A stretch of 64,000 nt of DNA, taken from positions 64,001 through 128,000 of IMG/VR virus record IMGVR_UViG_3300042373_001362. One strand, 5' to 3'. The notes under the pieces were generated by a model, which saw only the letters and a list, made by a program, of their open reading frames with translations, made no database searches and was not told the DNA's origin. The stretch's first letter is position 1. Every line of letters begins with the position of its first letter. The position numbers and the translations under genes are program-made. Positions 50,500-64,000 of the stretch are shown here, one piece after another. The DNA comes from a virus.

Positions 50500-50653
50500 A
50501 GTCGCTTTTCCTCTCGGCTCGCTTGTTTCTCTCAACATTATCTCAACCCACCCTCAACCGACAAATCTTTATCTGTGAGGCGGGGCTCACAGATAAAGAA
50601 GCACTCAGTGTCGGGGGGTGACACTGAGTGCTTACTGGAGAGAATTGCTGGGG

Positions 50654-50806
50654 CTAAACGCCCTTGGCGATGAGCAGGTCTATCAAGACGACGAGACGCT
50701 GGGCGTCCATCTCGCTCTTTGTGATTCTGCCACGCTTGAGCTGGTCGTCCAACTTCTCCAACTGGAGAAGGGCTTGTTCTATTGGGGATGTCGCTGTTGT
50801 TTCCAT
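50654..50806 (-). CDS. Leaderless 50 aa SHOCT-like microprotein (not in the ORF track)
   Basis: METTATSPIEQALLQLEKLDDQLKRGRITKSEMDAQRLVVLIDLLIAKGV; ATG at motif+36. Confidence 0.75.
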   Translation of the reverse strand: METTATSPIEQALLQLEKLDDQLKRGRITKSEMDAQRLVVLIDLLIAKGV

Positions 50807-50842
50807 AAGAACAGCCTAGCATCACCCACCCCAGGCCGACAA

Positions 50843-50858
50843 TGTTTCACGTGAAACA
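50843..50858. promoter_or_regulatory. parS: parS centromere-like site
   Basis: Perfect TGTTTCACGTGAAACA. Confidence 0.85.
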
Positions 50859-50924
50859 TTTTGCCCGACAAGAGCCCCGATGGCTAACTTGTCGGGCAAG
50901 GGTGGGTCGGAGTAAGGTGGAGGT

Positions 50925-51089
50925 ATGAACACGGCACCAGAAAAACTGACCAACCACCAAATGCTCAACAAGATTGAGGAAGTGATGAACTCCTTCGAGC
51001 ATCGCCAAGACTGGAGCGACACGGACAGGAAGGTCTTCCTCAGCCTCCACGAGGCTTGGAAGGCACTCGCTGAAGCAGTCGCCCTCTAG
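50925..51089 (+). CDS. Leaderless 54 aa microprotein (not in the ORF track)
   Basis: MNTAPEKLTNHQMLNKIEEVM...; ATG at motif+36. Confidence 0.75.
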   Translation: MNTAPEKLTNHQMLNKIEEVMNSFEHRQDWSDTDRKVFLSLHEAWKALAEAVAL

Positions 51090-51201
51090 GAAGTGAACGC
51101 CCCTCCAGTGGGGGCGTTCTTTCTACGCAAGCCCCGTTTGCGTAGAAAGAACGCTTGTGGCTGATTTGTCGGCTAAGGGTGGGTCGGTGTAAGGTTTGGG
51201 T

Positions 51202-51510
51202 ATGGAAACAACAGCGACAACAAAAGCAGCAATCATCGCAGAGTGGTACGACAACCGCTTCGGTGCGGAAGTGTTCGGAGCACTCATCAACATTCTCCGT
51301 CTCGCAGGAGCAACGGAGTTCACAATCCCAACCGCTTGGCTTGACTTTCAGCCCAACGGTCGGGAAGGCGAGATTGCTTTCCGCTTCGCCCACACGCTCT
51401 CTTGGGAGAACGGTGAGACAGCACCAGTCATCAAGGCTCTCCGTGAAGTAGCCCGTATCAAGTCGGTGGATTGGGACACAGACGCTCCGAGAGATTGGGA
51501 CTACGACTAG
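51202..51510 (+). CDS. Leaderless hypothetical protein (METTAT...)
   Basis: ATG at motif+36. Confidence 0.8.
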   Translation: METTATTKAAIIAEWYDNRFGAEVFGALINILRLAGATEFTIPTAWLDFQPNGREGEIAFRFAHTLSWENGETAPVIKALREVARIKSVDWDTDAPRDWDYD

Positions 51511-51553
51511 TCCCAACTTGTCGGCTAAGGGTGGGGTGAACTAAGGTATGGGT

Positions 51554-51751
51554 ATGACATCAACAGCGAAATGGATTAGCGAACTCCCAACAGTAGAGGA
51601 GTGCGACAAGGAGATTGCTCGCCTCTCTTACTGGCTGGAAACAAAGCGATACGAGATGAGCGCACGAGAGGCAGTTGCCCTCGCTGACCGTATTCGGACT
51701 TGGGAGAAAAAGCGCATTTGGGCGAGACGCTACGGAAAGTGTGACTACTGA
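51554..51751 (+). CDS. Leaderless hypothetical protein
   Basis: ATG at motif+36. Confidence 0.75.
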   Translation: MTSTAKWISELPTVEECDKEIARLSYWLETKRYEMSAREAVALADRIRTWEKKRIWARRYGKCDY

Positions 51752-51927
51752 TGAAGAAGTACAGCGCAACAATCTCTCTGTTCATTGACGAGTTTGAGGC
51801 AGAGGACAGAGAGAGTGCTAGGGCGATTGTCGGCAAATACATTGACCACCTCATTGACATTTGTGAGGTCAATGAGGGCGAACTCACTTGGGGTGGGGTA
51901 GACGAGTCAATAGAAGAAGAACAGTAA
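51751..51927 (+). CDS. 58 aa acidic microprotein
   Basis: TGATG coupling; MKKYSATISLFIDEFEAEDRE... Confidence 0.6.
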   Translation: MKKYSATISLFIDEFEAEDRESARAIVGKYIDHLIDICEVNEGELTWGGVDESIEEEQ

Positions 51928-51943
51928 GAGAGACGGGGCTCTC

Positions 51944-52090
51944 TTACTTCTTTTTCTTTATCGTGTAGCCGTTTGCTTTGAGGTCTTTGACTATCCGTTC
52001 TGGAATGCCACCCCAAATGGGGATACCAGAAGAGGCCAGTGAGCGAGCGATAATGTCAAGCTTTTTCTTACGGTGGAGTTGTCTGAACAT
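51944..52090 (-). CDS. 48 aa basic microprotein
   Basis: MFRQLHRKKKLDIIARSLASSGIPIWGGIPERIVKDLKANGYTIKKKK. Confidence 0.5.
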   Translation of the reverse strand: MFRQLHRKKKLDIIARSLASSGIPIWGGIPERIVKDLKANGYTIKKKK

Positions 52091-52145
52091 TCTGAAAGCA
52101 TACAACGATTTGTCGGCCTGGGGTGGGGTGGACTAAGATTTAGGT

Positions 52146-61946: not shown

Positions 61947-62033
61947 CCAGGCAGCATAGACCGGATGGCAGCAAAAACACGGGGCTCAAAACAGATTTGT
62001 CGGTTAGGGGTGGGGGGTAGTAAGGTGGTTCTT

Positions 62034-62240
62034 GTGAGGGAGACCCACCGCCTCTCCTCCGATACAACCGAATCGCACCAGTCCCTCCGCAGGATAAGGC
62101 TCTGGACAGCAAGCCTCTGATGGGCGTACGACCATCAAGCATCCGCCACAGTCCACCCGTCCTCCCTCTCGCGCGATAACTGCTCTAGGCTCGGGGGTGC
62201 TAGCCCCAGTATCGGAGGTGGGGCGGGGGGTCTTTTTCTT
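62034..62240 (+). ncRNA. Putative structured ncRNA 1 (~205 nt)
   Basis: Starts at +1 of the motif at 61997. The 5' AGACCCACCGCCTCTCCTCCGATAC pairs with the 3' GTATCGGAGGTGGGGCGGGGGGTCT, followed by a U-tract. Paralogous to 63668-63876. Confidence 0.75.
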
Positions 62241-62309
62241 TGTGCCAAAAGCGGGGCTTGGCACAAAGAAAGTTTGTCGGTCGTGGGTGGCCTGTTCTAA
62301 GATTGTCTT

Positions 62310-62612
62310 ATGAAAACAACAGCGAACAACGAAACAAGGGCAGCAATGAACGCTGCGTATCTAAACCCATTCGTCACGACATTGACTCTTGACGAAGTGC
62401 CGCACAAACGCAAATACACAAAAGAGCTGCGGGCTGGAGATTTCGTGGCCGTGTTTGTCAGCACCTCTCAGAAAGTTTGGGAAGGCTATTTTTCTTGGAA
62501 AGAAATCCGGACGATTGCTGCGACCCCTCAGGCCTATGTCCTGAAGTTCACAGACGGAACAGACGAACGACACCCAAAGTTCTCAGCAGGTAAATGGGAA
62601 GTGATGAAATAA
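62310..62612 (+). CDS. Leaderless hypothetical protein
   Basis: ATG at motif+36. Confidence 0.8.
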   Translation: MKTTANNETRAAMNAAYLNPFVTTLTLDEVPHKRKYTKELRAGDFVAVFVSTSQKVWEGYFSWKEIRTIAATPQAYVLKFTDGTDERHPKFSAGKWEVMK

Positions 62613-62730
62613 CCCGCCGGAATTTCCGGCAGCCGCACGCACGAGTGGCTAGCCCCGCTAGCCACTAATACGTGAGTGCTCCTCTTTCGTAAATTGTCGG
62701 TTAGGGGTGGGTGGGTGTAATGTTGGAGAC

Positions 62731-63027
62731 ATGAACACAACAGCAACAACACACACACAGTCAGCCCAACTAATTGACGATGCAACCCGTGAGGGTCGCC
62801 TCTATCACTTCAACGGTGGGCAGGCATACATCAAAGCAAGTGAGGACGATGTTCTCCTAATCATTGACATGACACAGGAAACACCCGACTTCACTTACCA
62901 CTATGGTGAGTTTGCCTCTAACTACTTCCGTAACAACCACCCACAGCCCACAGACAGGGAACCACTTGTTCCGTTCTACGCAGAAGTGGACAAAAGAAAA
63001 TTGTCGGTTCAGGGTGGGAAGAACTAA
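62731..63027 (+). CDS. Leaderless hypothetical protein; its 3' end reads through the next promoter
   Basis: ATG at motif+37. Confidence 0.75.
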   Translation: MNTTATTHTQSAQLIDDATREGRLYHFNGGQAYIKASEDDVLLIIDMTQETPDFTYHYGEFASNYFRNNHPQPTDREPLVPFYAEVDKRKLSVQGGKN

Positions 63028-63036
63028 GATAGAGAC

Positions 63037-63219
63037 ATGGAAACAGCACAAGCATTCATCATCGTCACTTGGTTCTTGGTCAAGTGTGCAGGACTCGCAA
63101 TCTTTGCAGTCGGCGCATACACCACTATCCAATGGATTAGGAAAAATGTCTCATTCTTCACTTACGAAGATGTAGACCCATCAGAAGACCCCGACTGGGT
63201 TCGGGAAAACTACGGATAA
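63037..63219 (+). CDS. Leaderless small membrane protein
   Basis: ATG at motif+36; one hydrophobic helix. Confidence 0.75.
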   Translation: METAQAFIIVTWFLVKCAGLAIFAVGAYTTIQWIRKNVSFFTYEDVDPSEDPDWVRENYG

Positions 63220-63667
63220 CAATCCGTAGACAGCGACAGCGAGAAAGTTCTTGCTCCCAGTTTGTCGCTGTACTGGTTGAGCAGAAAGAGAAAGAGTCAC
63301 TTTCGGGTGGCTCTTTCTCTATGTGGAGCCCCGGTTCTCCGGACAAAAAGAAAGAGCCCCAGCAATAAAGCTGAAGCTCCTCTTTCCTTGTGACTCACCA
63401 TTAGAGCTCTCAAGGAAGAGCTTATGTCTGGTCGTGAGCCAATCCAGCAAGGGGGACTTCCTTACCCGATAGTTGGTATCTGCCGATGTCCCTAACCCAA
63501 TCGAGCTAAGTACGGTTTCGTTCCTCAACAGCAGTGTCCCTGACTGATAGGTAAACATTACCAGCATTTCTCCAGCTTGTCAACTCAGATAGTCGTGGCC
63601 TCAATCTAGGCAACGGGGCTCATTTCCCGATTTGTCGGGTCAGGGGGGGTGGTGATAAATTGGTCTT

Positions 63668-63876
63668 GTGAGCGAGGCTCTTCGCCTCTCCCACACACAA
63701 CATAAGTGCATAGTCTCCCTTCTGGATAAGGCTCTTGTCACTGCGATATCCTCTCCACTCTCCGGAAGTGCGATGTTCCCTCCAGTCAGACAATCCGTCC
63801 TCCTCTGAATAGACCTCTCCTTATGGGGGTGACGACCTCGTGTGTGGGTGGGGCGAAGGGGCTCGCTCTTTCTTTT
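63668..63876 (+). ncRNA. Putative structured ncRNA 2 (~205 nt)
   Basis: Starts at motif 63632+36. The 5' GAGCGAGGCTCTTCGCCTCTCCCACACAC pairs with the 3' GTGTGTGGGTGGGGCGAAGGGGCTCGCTC, followed by a U-tract. Confidence 0.75.
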
Positions 63877-63909
63877 ACATAGGGGCAAGCCCCGTCTTGC
63901 CCCTATGTA

Positions 63910-63925
63910 TGTTTCACGTGAAACA
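63910..63925. promoter_or_regulatory. parS: parS centromere-like site
   Basis: Perfect TGTTTCACGTGAAACA. Confidence 0.85.
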
Positions 63926-63967
63926 TTGGACTTGTCGGTCAGGGGTGGGTGCGACTAAGGTGGGGGT

Positions 63968-64000
63968 ATGGAAACAGCAACAACATTGGAAACATCAGTC
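63968..64000 (+). CDS. Leaderless ORF (METATTLETSV...), 3' partial
   Basis: ATG at motif+36. Confidence 0.7.
   Translation, partial: METATTLETSV

What the first reader, a model, noticed from the sequence alone, without database searches (positions are those of the whole stretch)
50500..64000. Integron-like cassette architecture: [hairpin]-[promoter]-[microgene or ncRNA] repeated about 20 times
Seen: an AGCCCCG hairpin sits within ~0-35 nt upstream of, or overlapping, most of the promoters. This gives repeating units of roughly 250-1700 bp with unrelated cargo: acidic proteins, Zn ribbons, a membrane peptide and ncRNAs. Inference: a shufflable accessory-gene array for anti-defence or host takeover. 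Modules could be exchanged by homologous recombination between the conserved promoters or by a hairpin-specific recombinase. The neighbouring DUF932 protein and SMARCAL1-like annealing helicase are plausible participants, but nothing here shows that directly. No integrase is visible in this window.
Basis: inference. Interest (0 to 1): 0.8.

Follow-up and report, generated by a model that had tools for sequence, protein, structure and literature searches.

The report
Phage early-gene cassette array, PeSL-like
A lake-water phage carries about 45 small genes in a row, each with its own copy of one promoter and usually a hairpin in front; related phages have swapped, lost or gained genes at these joints, much like the known promoter/stem-loop cassettes of T4-type phages and not like an integron.

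Summary
The window is part of a complete 148-kb lake-water phage. One sigma-70-like promoter occurs 24 times in the window and 45-46 times over 27 kb. In about 35 copies the start codon lies 6-7 nt after the -10, so the mRNAs should be leaderless. In the window, 21 of 24 promoters have the AGCCCCG word within 50 nt upstream (9% by chance). It usually sits at the apex of a perfect palindrome, in either orientation.

The closest relative (G001) keeps a collinear backbone, but many slots hold unrelated genes. Synteny breaks favour promoter/hairpin joints (odds ratio 4.1, p 0.02). Promoters are homogenised within each genome, which suggests exchange between copies.

The complete genome encodes no integrase, resolvase or Y1 transposase. 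Every unit has its own promoter, and the hairpins are unlike attC. The array is therefore not integron-like. It is a new variant of the PeSL (promoter-early stem-loop) cassettes of T4-type phages.

This scan has noted similar leaderless cassette arrays before on other DNA.

Unexplained: the hairpins look like DNA palindromes, with no G.U pairs. Their arms are unrelated between relatives, but the 7-8 nt core is conserved across the phage family.

The parts
50861..51089 (+). Unit 1: palindrome 50861-50899 (stem 12, core at 50874; its 3' arm is the -35 itself), promoter 50889-50918, leaderless ORF 50925-51089 (54 aa)
51114..51510 (+). Unit 2: palindrome 51114-51154 (stem 17), promoter 51166-51195, leaderless ORF 51202-51510 (102 aa); absent from G001
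51518..51948 (+). Unit 3: promoter 51518-51547 (no core word upstream), leaderless ORF 51554-51751 (65 aa, orthologue in G001), second small ORF, apex hairpin 51923-51948
52110..52325 (+). Unit 4: promoter 52110-52139 (no core word upstream), leaderless ORF 52146-52325 (59 aa)
52355..52745 (+). Unit 5: palindrome 52355-52388 (stem 11, flipped core), promoter 52392-52421, leaderless ORF 52428-52745 (105 aa)
52778..53298 (+). Unit 6: palindrome 52778-52816 (stem 12; its 3' arm runs into the -35), promoter 52811-52840, GTG leaderless ORF 52847-53086 (79 aa, absent from G001), then ORF 53086-53298 (orthologue in G001)
53272..54933 (+). Unit 7: core word at 53272 without a long stem, promoter 53301-53330, leaderless ORF 53337-53465, then about five more genes with no internal promoter; collinear with G001
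54967..55598 (+). Unit 8: palindrome 54967-54989 (stem 10, loop 3), promoter 55012-55041, leadered transcript, ORF 55089-55442 (117 aa); apex hairpin 55577-55598
55603..56318 (+). Unit 9: promoter 55603-55632, leaderless ORF 55639-55842 (67 aa, Cys-rich), apex hairpin 55866-55903 (stem 16), ORF 56065-56328, palindrome 56276-56318 (stem 17). A strain variant in run X5 replaces 55849-56602 with 31 nt
56318..56638 (+). Unit 10: promoter 56318-56347 with no ORF (possible non-coding transcript), palindrome 56603-56638
56643..57754 (+). Unit 11: weak promoter 56643-56672, uncertain ORF 56679-56984, apex hairpin 57101-57119, family-wide conserved ORF 57165-57494 (109 aa), apex hairpin 57727-57754
57972..58688 (+). 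Unit 12: core word at 57972, promoter 57999-58028, leaderless ORF 58035-58256 and ORF 58259-58657 (phrog_31860), palindrome 58657-58688 (stem 13). The whole cargo is replaced by unrelated genes in G001
58694..59310 (+). Unit 13: promoter 58694-58723, leaderless ORF 58730-58930 plus two more ORFs (all with orthologues in G001), palindrome 59290-59310
59331..59873 (+). Unit 14: promoter 59331-59360, leaderless ORF 59367-59804 (145 aa), palindrome 59840-59873 (stem 14). The gene is absent from G001 but present in distant lineages behind their own promoter box
59883..60421 (+). Unit 15: promoter 59883-59912, leaderless ORF 59919-60197 (92 aa), hairpins, palindrome 60390-60421 (stem 12)
60418..61042 (+). 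Unit 16: promoter 60418-60447, leader with a Shine-Dalgarno sequence, ORFs 60476-60769 and 60766-60999, palindrome 61016-61042. A strain variant in run X5 skips 60473-60765
61056..61395 (+). Unit 17: promoter 61056-61085, leaderless ORF 61092-61304 (70 aa, Cys-rich), palindrome 61359-61395 (stem 17, loop 3)
61396..61644 (+). Unit 18: promoter 61396-61425, leaderless ORF 61432-61644 (70 aa, orthologue in G001)
61980..62271 (+). Unit 19: core word at 61980, promoter 61997-62026, non-coding RNA of about 215 nt (89% identical to G001), palindrome 62235-62271 (stem 14)
62274..62666 (+). Unit 20: promoter 62274-62303, leaderless ORF 62310-62612 (100 aa), palindrome 62644-62666
62694..63027 (+). Unit 21: promoter 62694-62723, leaderless ORF 62731-63027 (98 aa)
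63001..63219 (+). Unit 22: promoter 63001-63030 (inside the end of the previous ORF, no hairpin), leaderless ORF 63037-63219 (60 aa, hydrophobic). Its orthologue sits at a different slot in G001
63614..63909 (+). Unit 23: core word at 63614, promoter 63632-63661, second copy of the non-coding RNA, palindrome 63876-63909 (stem 14)
63909..64000 (+). Unit 24: 18-bp perfect palindrome 63909-63926, promoter 63932-63961, leaderless ORF from 63968 (100 aa, runs past the window end). It is one of three paralogues, and the duplicated block starts here
50535..50633 (-). Reverse-strand promoter copy (its -35 starts at 50564), next to two abutting palindromes 50566-50599 and 50599-50633
50813..50860 (-). 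Reverse-strand promoter copy (its -35 starts at 50842), divergent from unit 1, overlapping the 18-bp palindrome at 50841-50860

Best explanation
This is the early, accessory-gene region of a 148-kb lake-water phage whose host is probably an actinobacterium. It consists of about 45 self-contained transcription units. Each unit starts with a copy of one strong host-type (sigma-70/sigma-A-like) promoter placed so that transcription begins at or next to the start codon, giving leaderless mRNA. Most units are insulated from the previous one by a very stable hairpin just after the previous stop codon, which probably acts as a terminator or 3'-end hairpin. The roughly 40-50 nt promoter module is repeated many times in direct orientation, so copies can recombine or convert one another. 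That deletes, duplicates, moves and replaces whole units without disturbing their neighbours. In mechanism this matches the PeSL (promoter-early stem-loop) cassettes of T4-type phages. Shown here: the anatomy, its statistics, cassette turnover between relatives, and concerted evolution of the promoters. Inferred: early timing, leaderless starts, terminator activity, and recombination at the promoters as the actual mechanism.
For: Promoters: 45-46 forward copies against none in a shuffled genome. A start codon lies 6-7 nt after the -10 in 35 of 44 copies. The same grammar occurs in relative G001 with a different spacer, and in distant lineages with other promoter boxes. Hairpins: they lie 0-40 nt after stop codons and directly before promoters, with fold z-scores of -2 to -8. 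Turnover: G001 is collinear but has roughly nine slots with unrelated genes, one relocated unit, and paralogues in different slots. Synteny is broken at 24 of 31 promoter/hairpin joints against 10 of 22 plain gene joints (odds ratio 4.1, p 0.022). An intragenomic duplicate starts right after one apex hairpin and ends inside the next. A 145-aa cassette is missing from the near relative but present in distant ones. Strain variants in lake metagenomes have a 754-bp replacement that runs from 6 nt after a stop codon to the first base of a hairpin, and a one-gene skip. Concerted evolution: the spacer type is 40/45 against 0/34 in one genome and 0/45 against 33/34 in the other. Orthologous promoters are no more alike (0.52) than random between-genome pairs (0.53), while within-genome pairs are 0.66-0.67. 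Neighbouring promoters are more alike in variable columns (permutation p below 0.0002). Cargo: ORFans. Published model: PMC2839356 and PMC4122927.
Against: No RNA data exist, so start sites, leaderless status, timing and termination are all unproven. Most hairpins lack a U-tract; a canonical terminator scan misses nearly all of them. The stems are perfect Watson-Crick palindromes with no excess of G.T over A.C (4 against 5 in about 660 pairs), which is unusual for RNA helices shaped by selection on RNA. The enrichment of breaks at unit joints could come from selection alone, since breaks inside operons are harmful, without any recombination at the repeats. Ten breaks lie at plain gene joints. 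Concerted evolution could instead reflect parallel adaptation to a changed sigma or activator. The only read-level joint lying inside a promoter has a short anchor (32 nt) and may be an alignment artefact.
Confidence: 0.6

Rival explanations
1. The array is plain transcriptional punctuation. It is an ordinary early region with many promoters and hairpins, and the repeats play no part in rearrangement. Mosaicism arises from generic illegitimate recombination, and selection keeps only events at unit borders.
For: Ten of 34 synteny breaks lie at plain gene joints. Some differences swap only the first gene of a unit or add a gene inside one. For the family-wide 109-aa gene, homology with a distant lineage starts at a different conserved box, not at the array promoter. 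Well-anchored read joints lie at gene or hairpin edges, not inside promoters.
Against: Within-genome homogenisation of 34-45 promoter copies and the greater likeness of neighbouring copies are hard to explain without exchange between copies, unless a trans-factor changed. The duplicated block is bounded by apex hairpins.
Confidence: 0.25
2. The core word gAGCCCCG is a DNA-level recognition site for an unidentified phage or host protein, such as a nickase, a hairpin- or cruciform-binding protein, or a roadblock. It marks unit borders, and the palindromes form on DNA and serve recombination, replication or insulation.
For: Stems are perfect palindromes with no G.U excess and ordinary base composition. 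The asymmetric core occurs in both orientations at 25:27 although all genes are on one strand. Arms are unrelated at orthologous sites, while the core and its orientation persist in 10 of 11 cases, sometimes with no arms at all. Some 5' arms are inverted copies of the native -35. The word is kept across the family in different settings, forming both stem arms in L200 and L203. It is depleted in both orientations in the late 100 kb (2 against 12.6-15 expected). The PeSL authors speculated about a similar GGGG...CCCC or GGGC target.
Against: No candidate enzyme was found; Phage_integrase, Resolvase and Y1_Tnp are absent. The depletion is only moderate, ranking 14-100 of about 2050 hexamers. In relatives the word simply forms the stem of a classic GC-rich terminator-shaped hairpin. 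Orientation kept between relatives is what descent alone would give. Perfect stems may only mean the hairpins are young, made by template switching.
Confidence: 0.1
3. This is a true integron-like system: a site-specific recombinase excises and inserts cassettes at folded hairpin sites.
For: Only the superficial layout, a same-strand array of small unrelated genes separated by hairpins.
Against: The complete genome has no integrase, resolvase or Y1 transposase. Each unit carries its own promoter. The hairpins conserve the apex and have perfect stems without extrahelical bases, the reverse of attC. Many differences are not whole hairpin-to-hairpin units.
Confidence: 0.02

Closest known systems
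PeSLs (promoter-early stem-loops), mobile regulatory cassettes in the hyperplastic regions of T4-type phages (PMC2839356, PMC4122927)
   Same: Both are composites of a strong sigma-70-like early promoter and an adjacent stem-loop, repeated many times between small ORFan genes. Related phages differ by insertion, deletion and replacement of genes at these elements. Both have a conserved C/G-run motif in the stem-loop. No dedicated recombinase is known in either case.
   Different: This is an unrelated phage lineage (lake-water, probably an actinophage). The mRNAs are leaderless, with no Shine-Dalgarno sequence. The density is far higher (45 copies in 27 kb). The conserved hairpin element is a 7-8 nt asymmetric core at the apex of perfect palindromes with unrelated arms, in either orientation. 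Most hairpins have no U-tract. Mini-circles and terminator activity have not been shown here.
Host-takeover early regions of large lytic phages (SPO1, Kayvirus/Twort-like; PMC7698491 and PMC13401047 were found but not read in detail)
   Same: Both are clusters of many small early genes, each or nearly each with its own strong host-type promoter, and with terminators.
   Different: From my own knowledge those promoters are less uniform and the mRNAs carry leaders. Cassette shuffling at the repeats is not their defining feature.
Integron cassette arrays (IntI, attI, attC)
   Same: Both are same-strand arrays of small unrelated genes separated by hairpin-forming sites, and content varies between relatives.
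   Different: Here there is no integrase, every unit has a promoter, and the hairpin conserves its apex not its base. Stems are perfect, and exchange most likely occurs by homology.
Leaderless gene expression with the -10 next to the ORF (Deinococcus-Thermus, PMC12340547; from my own knowledge also common in Actinobacteria and in Thermus phage phiYS40)
   Same: The -10 hexamer lies 6-7 nt before the start codon.
   Different: Here it is one stereotyped 36-nt promoter reused about 45 times in a phage, with an extra ACAGCGA box just after the start.

Membership tests
Integron | An IntI-type tyrosine recombinase encoded next to the array | tested here: not met
   PF00589 has no match in the complete 148-kb genome, and the control genomes all match. 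There is also no Resolvase.
Integron | attC sites: imperfect palindromes with conserved core sites at the stem base, extrahelical bases and a variable centre | tested here: not met
   Here the centre is conserved and the arms are unrelated. About 50 of 63 stems are perfect.
Integron | Cassettes lack promoters and are read from one common promoter | tested here: not met
   There are 45-46 promoter copies, one per unit.
PeSL cassettes | A composite of a sigma-70-like early promoter and an adjacent stem-loop, repeated through the region | tested here: met
   33 of 45 promoters have the hairpin core within 50 nt upstream, against 9% by chance. Folds are supported.
PeSL cassettes | They lie in a hyperplastic region rich in small genes without known homologues | tested here: met
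   Ten cargo proteins have no Pfam family and only two have PHROGs of unknown function. About half the genes have no counterpart in G001.
PeSL cassettes | Insertions, deletions and replacements between related phages occur at the elements | tested here: met
   Breaks occur at 24 of 31 promoter/hairpin joints against 10 of 22 plain joints, p 0.022. Strain-level joints lie at hairpin and gene edges. The association is not exclusive.
PeSL cassettes | The stem-loops are effective transcription terminators | not testable with these tools
   No RNA run holds the phage. Most hairpins lack a U-tract.
PeSL cassettes | Recombination between elements yields mini-circles | not testable with these tools
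   Only assembled contigs were available, not raw reads.
PeSL cassettes | Host genome is a T4-type myovirus | tested here: inconclusive
   The nearest cultured hits of the helicase are Arthrobacter and Gordonia phages at 34%. No T4 core genes were looked for.
Canonical intrinsic terminator | A GC-rich stem-loop followed at once by a run of U | tested here: not met
   Stable stems are present, but they have ordinary base composition and only a TTTGT tail in G000 and none in G001.
REP/RAYT or IS200/IS605-type hairpin elements | A Y1 (HUH) transposase plus hairpins with a conserved stem | tested here: not met
   PF01797 is absent, and the stems are unrelated to one another.

The most novel reading that the evidence does not exclude
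The conserved asymmetric core at the centre of perfect palindromes with unrelated arms is a DNA-level signal. It is read by an unidentified protein, or it acts as a seed for fold-back copying. Either way it creates and renews the border palindromes and promotes cassette exchange, which would be a recombinase-free, hairpin-marked gene-shuffling system shared by a whole family of lake phages.
Probability: 0.12. Interest if true: 0.8.

Novelty: new variant of a known kind. Interest (0 to 1): 0.5.

Why it matters
PeSL-type shuffling has so far been documented in papers only for T4-type phages of Gram-negative bacteria. Here the same logic appears in an unrelated and abundant lake-phage family with about 397 relatives in IMG/VR. 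This phage itself was found in about 19 lake metagenome studies. It also takes an extreme form: some 45 leaderless units driven by one promoter that evolves in concert. This suggests that repeated promoter/hairpin modules are a general way for large lytic phages to trade accessory genes without breaking regulation. It also offers a rich, well-delimited set of candidate early genes (host takeover, anti-defence) and a compact natural promoter/insulator set for leaderless expression. The border palindromes are a clean puzzle: perfect stems, a conserved core, both orientations.

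Tried and rejected
- Megablast of the region against cultured phages found no match.
- A search with the 18-nt promoter pattern in viral contigs gave mostly single chance hits. The stricter pattern found only one 4.9-kb fragment of the same phage.
- No RNA holder was listed among public runs, so expression could not be examined.
- Read laying: most joints with anchors of 20-33 nt are artefacts of the repeated promoter and of an 18-bp palindrome. Several loose ends match array units that lie outside the 20-kb reference I used. 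I did not count them.
- Rfam found no family for the array RNAs; there was one sub-threshold ctRNA hit.
- The Rpf-type lysin found no bacterial relative in genome contigs, so the host stays inferred.
- The 132-aa cassette (window 58259-58657) found no relatives in viral contigs.
- I tested whether hairpins are RNA-selected through a G.U excess. There is none.
- I first took the depletion of the core word in late genes for a very strong signal. Ranking all hexamers shows it is moderate.
- Distance from core to -35 is 15-43 nt with no periodicity, so a fixed-position activator site is unlikely.
- Orientation of the core along the array shows no alternation, so paired kissing loops are not indicated.

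Full report
**What the DNA is.** The window is bases 64001-128000 of a complete 148,355-bp virus record with 127-bp terminal repeats. A 50-kb contig of a relative, G001, runs across the record's ends, so the ends are probably not fixed physical termini. Near-identical sequence occurs in about 19 lake-water metagenome studies from 2016 to 2025. Several hints point to an actinobacterial host:
- The SNF2 helicase at 47717-49627 is closest to Arthrobacter and Gordonia phage helicases (34%).
- A lysin carries the Rpf-type transglycosylase domain PF06737.
- The -10 hexamers look like the actinobacterial TAGRRT type (this comparison rests on my own knowledge).
- Leaderless starts are the rule in the array.

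The host is inferred, not shown. A search for bacterial relatives of the lysin found nothing.

**The observation.** AGCCCCG or its complement occurs 39 times in the window against 4.1 expected, and every copy lies beyond 37.5 kb. Directly 3' of most copies is a long conserved box: a -35 reading TTGTCGG, a spacer containing GGGTGGG, and a -10 of the form TAAnnT.

A weight matrix finds 45-46 forward and 4 reverse copies in the genome and none in a shuffled genome. Of these, 24 forward copies lie in the window (50889-63932) and the rest continue to genome 141.0 kb.

In 35 of 44 copies an ATG or GTG lies 6-7 nt after the -10, which is where transcription should start, so these mRNAs would be leaderless. 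The others have 25-35-nt leaders with a Shine-Dalgarno sequence, or drive no ORF.

An ACAGC(GA) box follows the start within 24 nt in 23 of 45 units, against about 1.3 per kb overall. It falls in different reading frames and also occurs in the leadered transcripts. It is therefore a nucleic-acid signal, not a shared peptide.

**The hairpins.** In the window, 21 of 24 promoters have the core word within 50 nt upstream; array-wide it is 33 of 45, against 9% of random positions. In 17 of the 21 the word sits at the apex of a perfect stem of 8-17 bp. Of 14 inter-unit segments folded, 10 had no shuffle out of 200 folding as well, with z from -2 to -8. The hairpins start 0-40 nt after the previous stop codon. 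Some occur between genes without a promoter, and some promoters lack a hairpin, so the two elements are separable.

The conserved element is gA-GCCCCG-y(t), in either orientation (25:27). The arms are unrelated from site to site.

The helicase finds 397 related viral contigs, several of 150-170 kb. Only the nearest, G001 (helicase 89% aa), shares the promoter and the apex hairpins. G001 is collinear with this genome at 70-75% nucleotide identity, but inside the array only islands align.

At the protein level there is a conserved backbone with about nine slots where one to four units are replaced by unrelated ones. One unit is relocated (window 63037-63219). A 100-aa paralogue family occupies different slots in the two genomes.

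Counting gene joints gives the following:

| Joint type | Synteny broken | Synteny kept |
|---|---|---|
| With a promoter or core word | 24 | 7 |
| Plain gene-gene joint | 10 | 12 |

The odds ratio is 4.1 (p 0.022). Some of the plain breaks are artefacts of my automatic gene calls.

Further support comes from four results:
- An intragenomic duplicate begins right after one apex hairpin and ends inside the next.
- A 145-aa cassette missing from G001 is present in lineages whose helicase is only 69% identical. There it sits behind that lineage's own promoter box, again leaderless.
- The 109-aa gene at 57165-57494 is 93% identical (aa) to one in L198, although L198's helicase is more distant than G001's.
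- Contigs from lake metagenomes show two well-anchored variants. One is a 754-bp replacement running from 6 nt after a stop codon to the first base of a hairpin (window 55848 to 56603). The other is a one-gene skip (60472 to 60766).

Most other joints in that output are repeat artefacts and I discard them.

**Mechanism.** The promoters evolve in concert:

| Measure | G000 | G001 |
|---|---|---|
| GGTGG-type spacer | 40 of 45 | 0 of 34 |
| GGTAA-type spacer | 0 of 45 | 33 of 34 |
| Identity within genome | 0.66 | 0.67 |

Orthologous promoter pairs share 0.52 identity, and random between-genome pairs share 0.53. Neighbouring promoters are more alike than distant ones in the variable columns (p below 0.0002 in G000, 0.03 in G001).

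The simplest reading is frequent exchange between promoter copies, by unequal crossing-over and gene conversion. That is the PeSL model of Arbiol, Comeau and Krisch (PMC2839356, PMC4122927). The alternative is parallel adaptation of all copies to a changed transcription factor.

The complete genome has no tyrosine or serine recombinase and no Y1 transposase, and the positive controls all match. Each unit has its own promoter. The hairpins conserve the apex rather than the stem base. The integron analogy therefore fails on all three defining features.

**What stays unexplained.** The hairpins do not look like ordinary RNA terminators.
- About 50 of 63 apex hairpins in the two genomes have flawless Watson-Crick stems. 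In about 660 pairs there are 4 G.T and 5 A.C appositions. Base composition is ordinary, and a U-tract is mostly missing.
- At orthologous sites the arms are unrelated, yet the core and its orientation are the same in 10 of 11 cases. Sometimes the core stands without arms.
- Some 5' arms are inverted copies of the native -35, as if made by fold-back copying.
- In distant relatives (L200, L203) the same word forms both arms of long GC-rich hairpins of classic terminator shape. This resembles the GGGG...CCCC stem-loops noted for PeSLs.
- In the late 100 kb the word is depleted in both orientations (2 against 12.6-15 expected). It is the most depleted of the 16 NCCCCN words. It ranks only 14-100 among about 2050 hexamers, so I treat this as suggestive.

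I consider a DNA-level role possible at about 0.1: a protein site, or a seed for palindrome formation.

**Cargo.** Ten window proteins have no Pfam family, and two match PHROGs of unknown function. Beyond the window the array holds DUF3846, a DUF1281_C/Api92-like domain and a weak ParA-like P-loop. From my own knowledge these are the kinds of genes seen in the leading regions of mobile elements. Host-takeover or anti-defence roles are reasonable guesses only. Nothing links the DUF932 protein or the SNF2 helicase to the array.

**Novelty and earlier notes.** Earlier notes of this scan describe similar leaderless promoter/hairpin cassette arrays in other uncultured phages and compare them to PeSLs. 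I did not test those. They agree with this reading and show that the kind recurs.

This case is a new variant of a known kind. It is distinguished by its size, by the strict reuse and concerted evolution of one leaderless promoter, and by the core-centred palindromes.

Noticed in passing
window 62033-62250 and 63668-63880: Two paralogous promoter-driven transcripts of about 215 nt have no credible ORF. The first is 89% identical to its G001 counterpart, while the neighbouring coding genes are 70-75% identical. There is no Rfam family. This is probably a constrained non-coding RNA.
   Followed up: partly
window 50841-50860, 63909-63926; genome 128742 and 130454; three copies in G001: An 18-bp perfect palindrome (ATGTTTCACGTGAAACAT) sits directly beside a few of the promoters, including the divergent promoter pair at the left edge of the array. 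It is a candidate operator for a dimeric regulator. It also caused false joints in the read laying.
   Followed up: partly
whole genome; G001 (L194-L196): GATC is absent from all 148 kb and from the 50-kb relative. GGCGCC occurs once. GCCGGC occurs 0 times here but 24 times in G001. This is strong restriction-site avoidance that differs between close relatives, which suggests different host strains.
   Followed up: partly
window 50925-63990 (first 24 nt of each transcript): An ACAGC(GA) box follows the predicted start in about half of the units in both genomes. It falls in different reading frames and also in leadered transcripts. It may be a translation enhancer for leaderless mRNA or a downstream promoter element.
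   Followed up: partly
window 57165-57494; L198:10001-10312: This 109-aa array gene is present across the phage family. It is 93% identical (aa) to a copy in L198, although L198's helicase is more distant than G001's. Homology starts at a TTCTGACAT box about 35 nt before the ATG and stops at the stop codon. This suggests lateral exchange of a single cassette.
   Followed up: partly
L200, L202, L203, L205 (distant relatives): Each lineage has its own 12-15-nt box repeated 20-25 times in the equivalent region, often as inverted pairs. The array architecture is family-wide, but the repeated signals are lineage-specific.
   Followed up: partly
genome 136335-141050 (beyond the window); L198: Leadered units in the distal array share an ACTACTAGAA(A/G)GAA leader box just before the start codon. 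The same box recurs 7 times in L198.
   Followed up: no
window 40837-41943: A lysin carries an Rpf-type transglycosylase domain (PF06737) plus an SLT domain. ThyX, a class II ribonucleotide reductase, a DUF932 protein and a calcineurin-like phosphoesterase lie in the same left-hand block.
   Followed up: no
genome ends; G001 44068-44214: The relative's contig runs straight across the junction of this record's two ends. The 127-bp terminal repeat is therefore probably an assembly overlap of a circularly permuted or circular map, not a fixed physical end.
   Followed up: no
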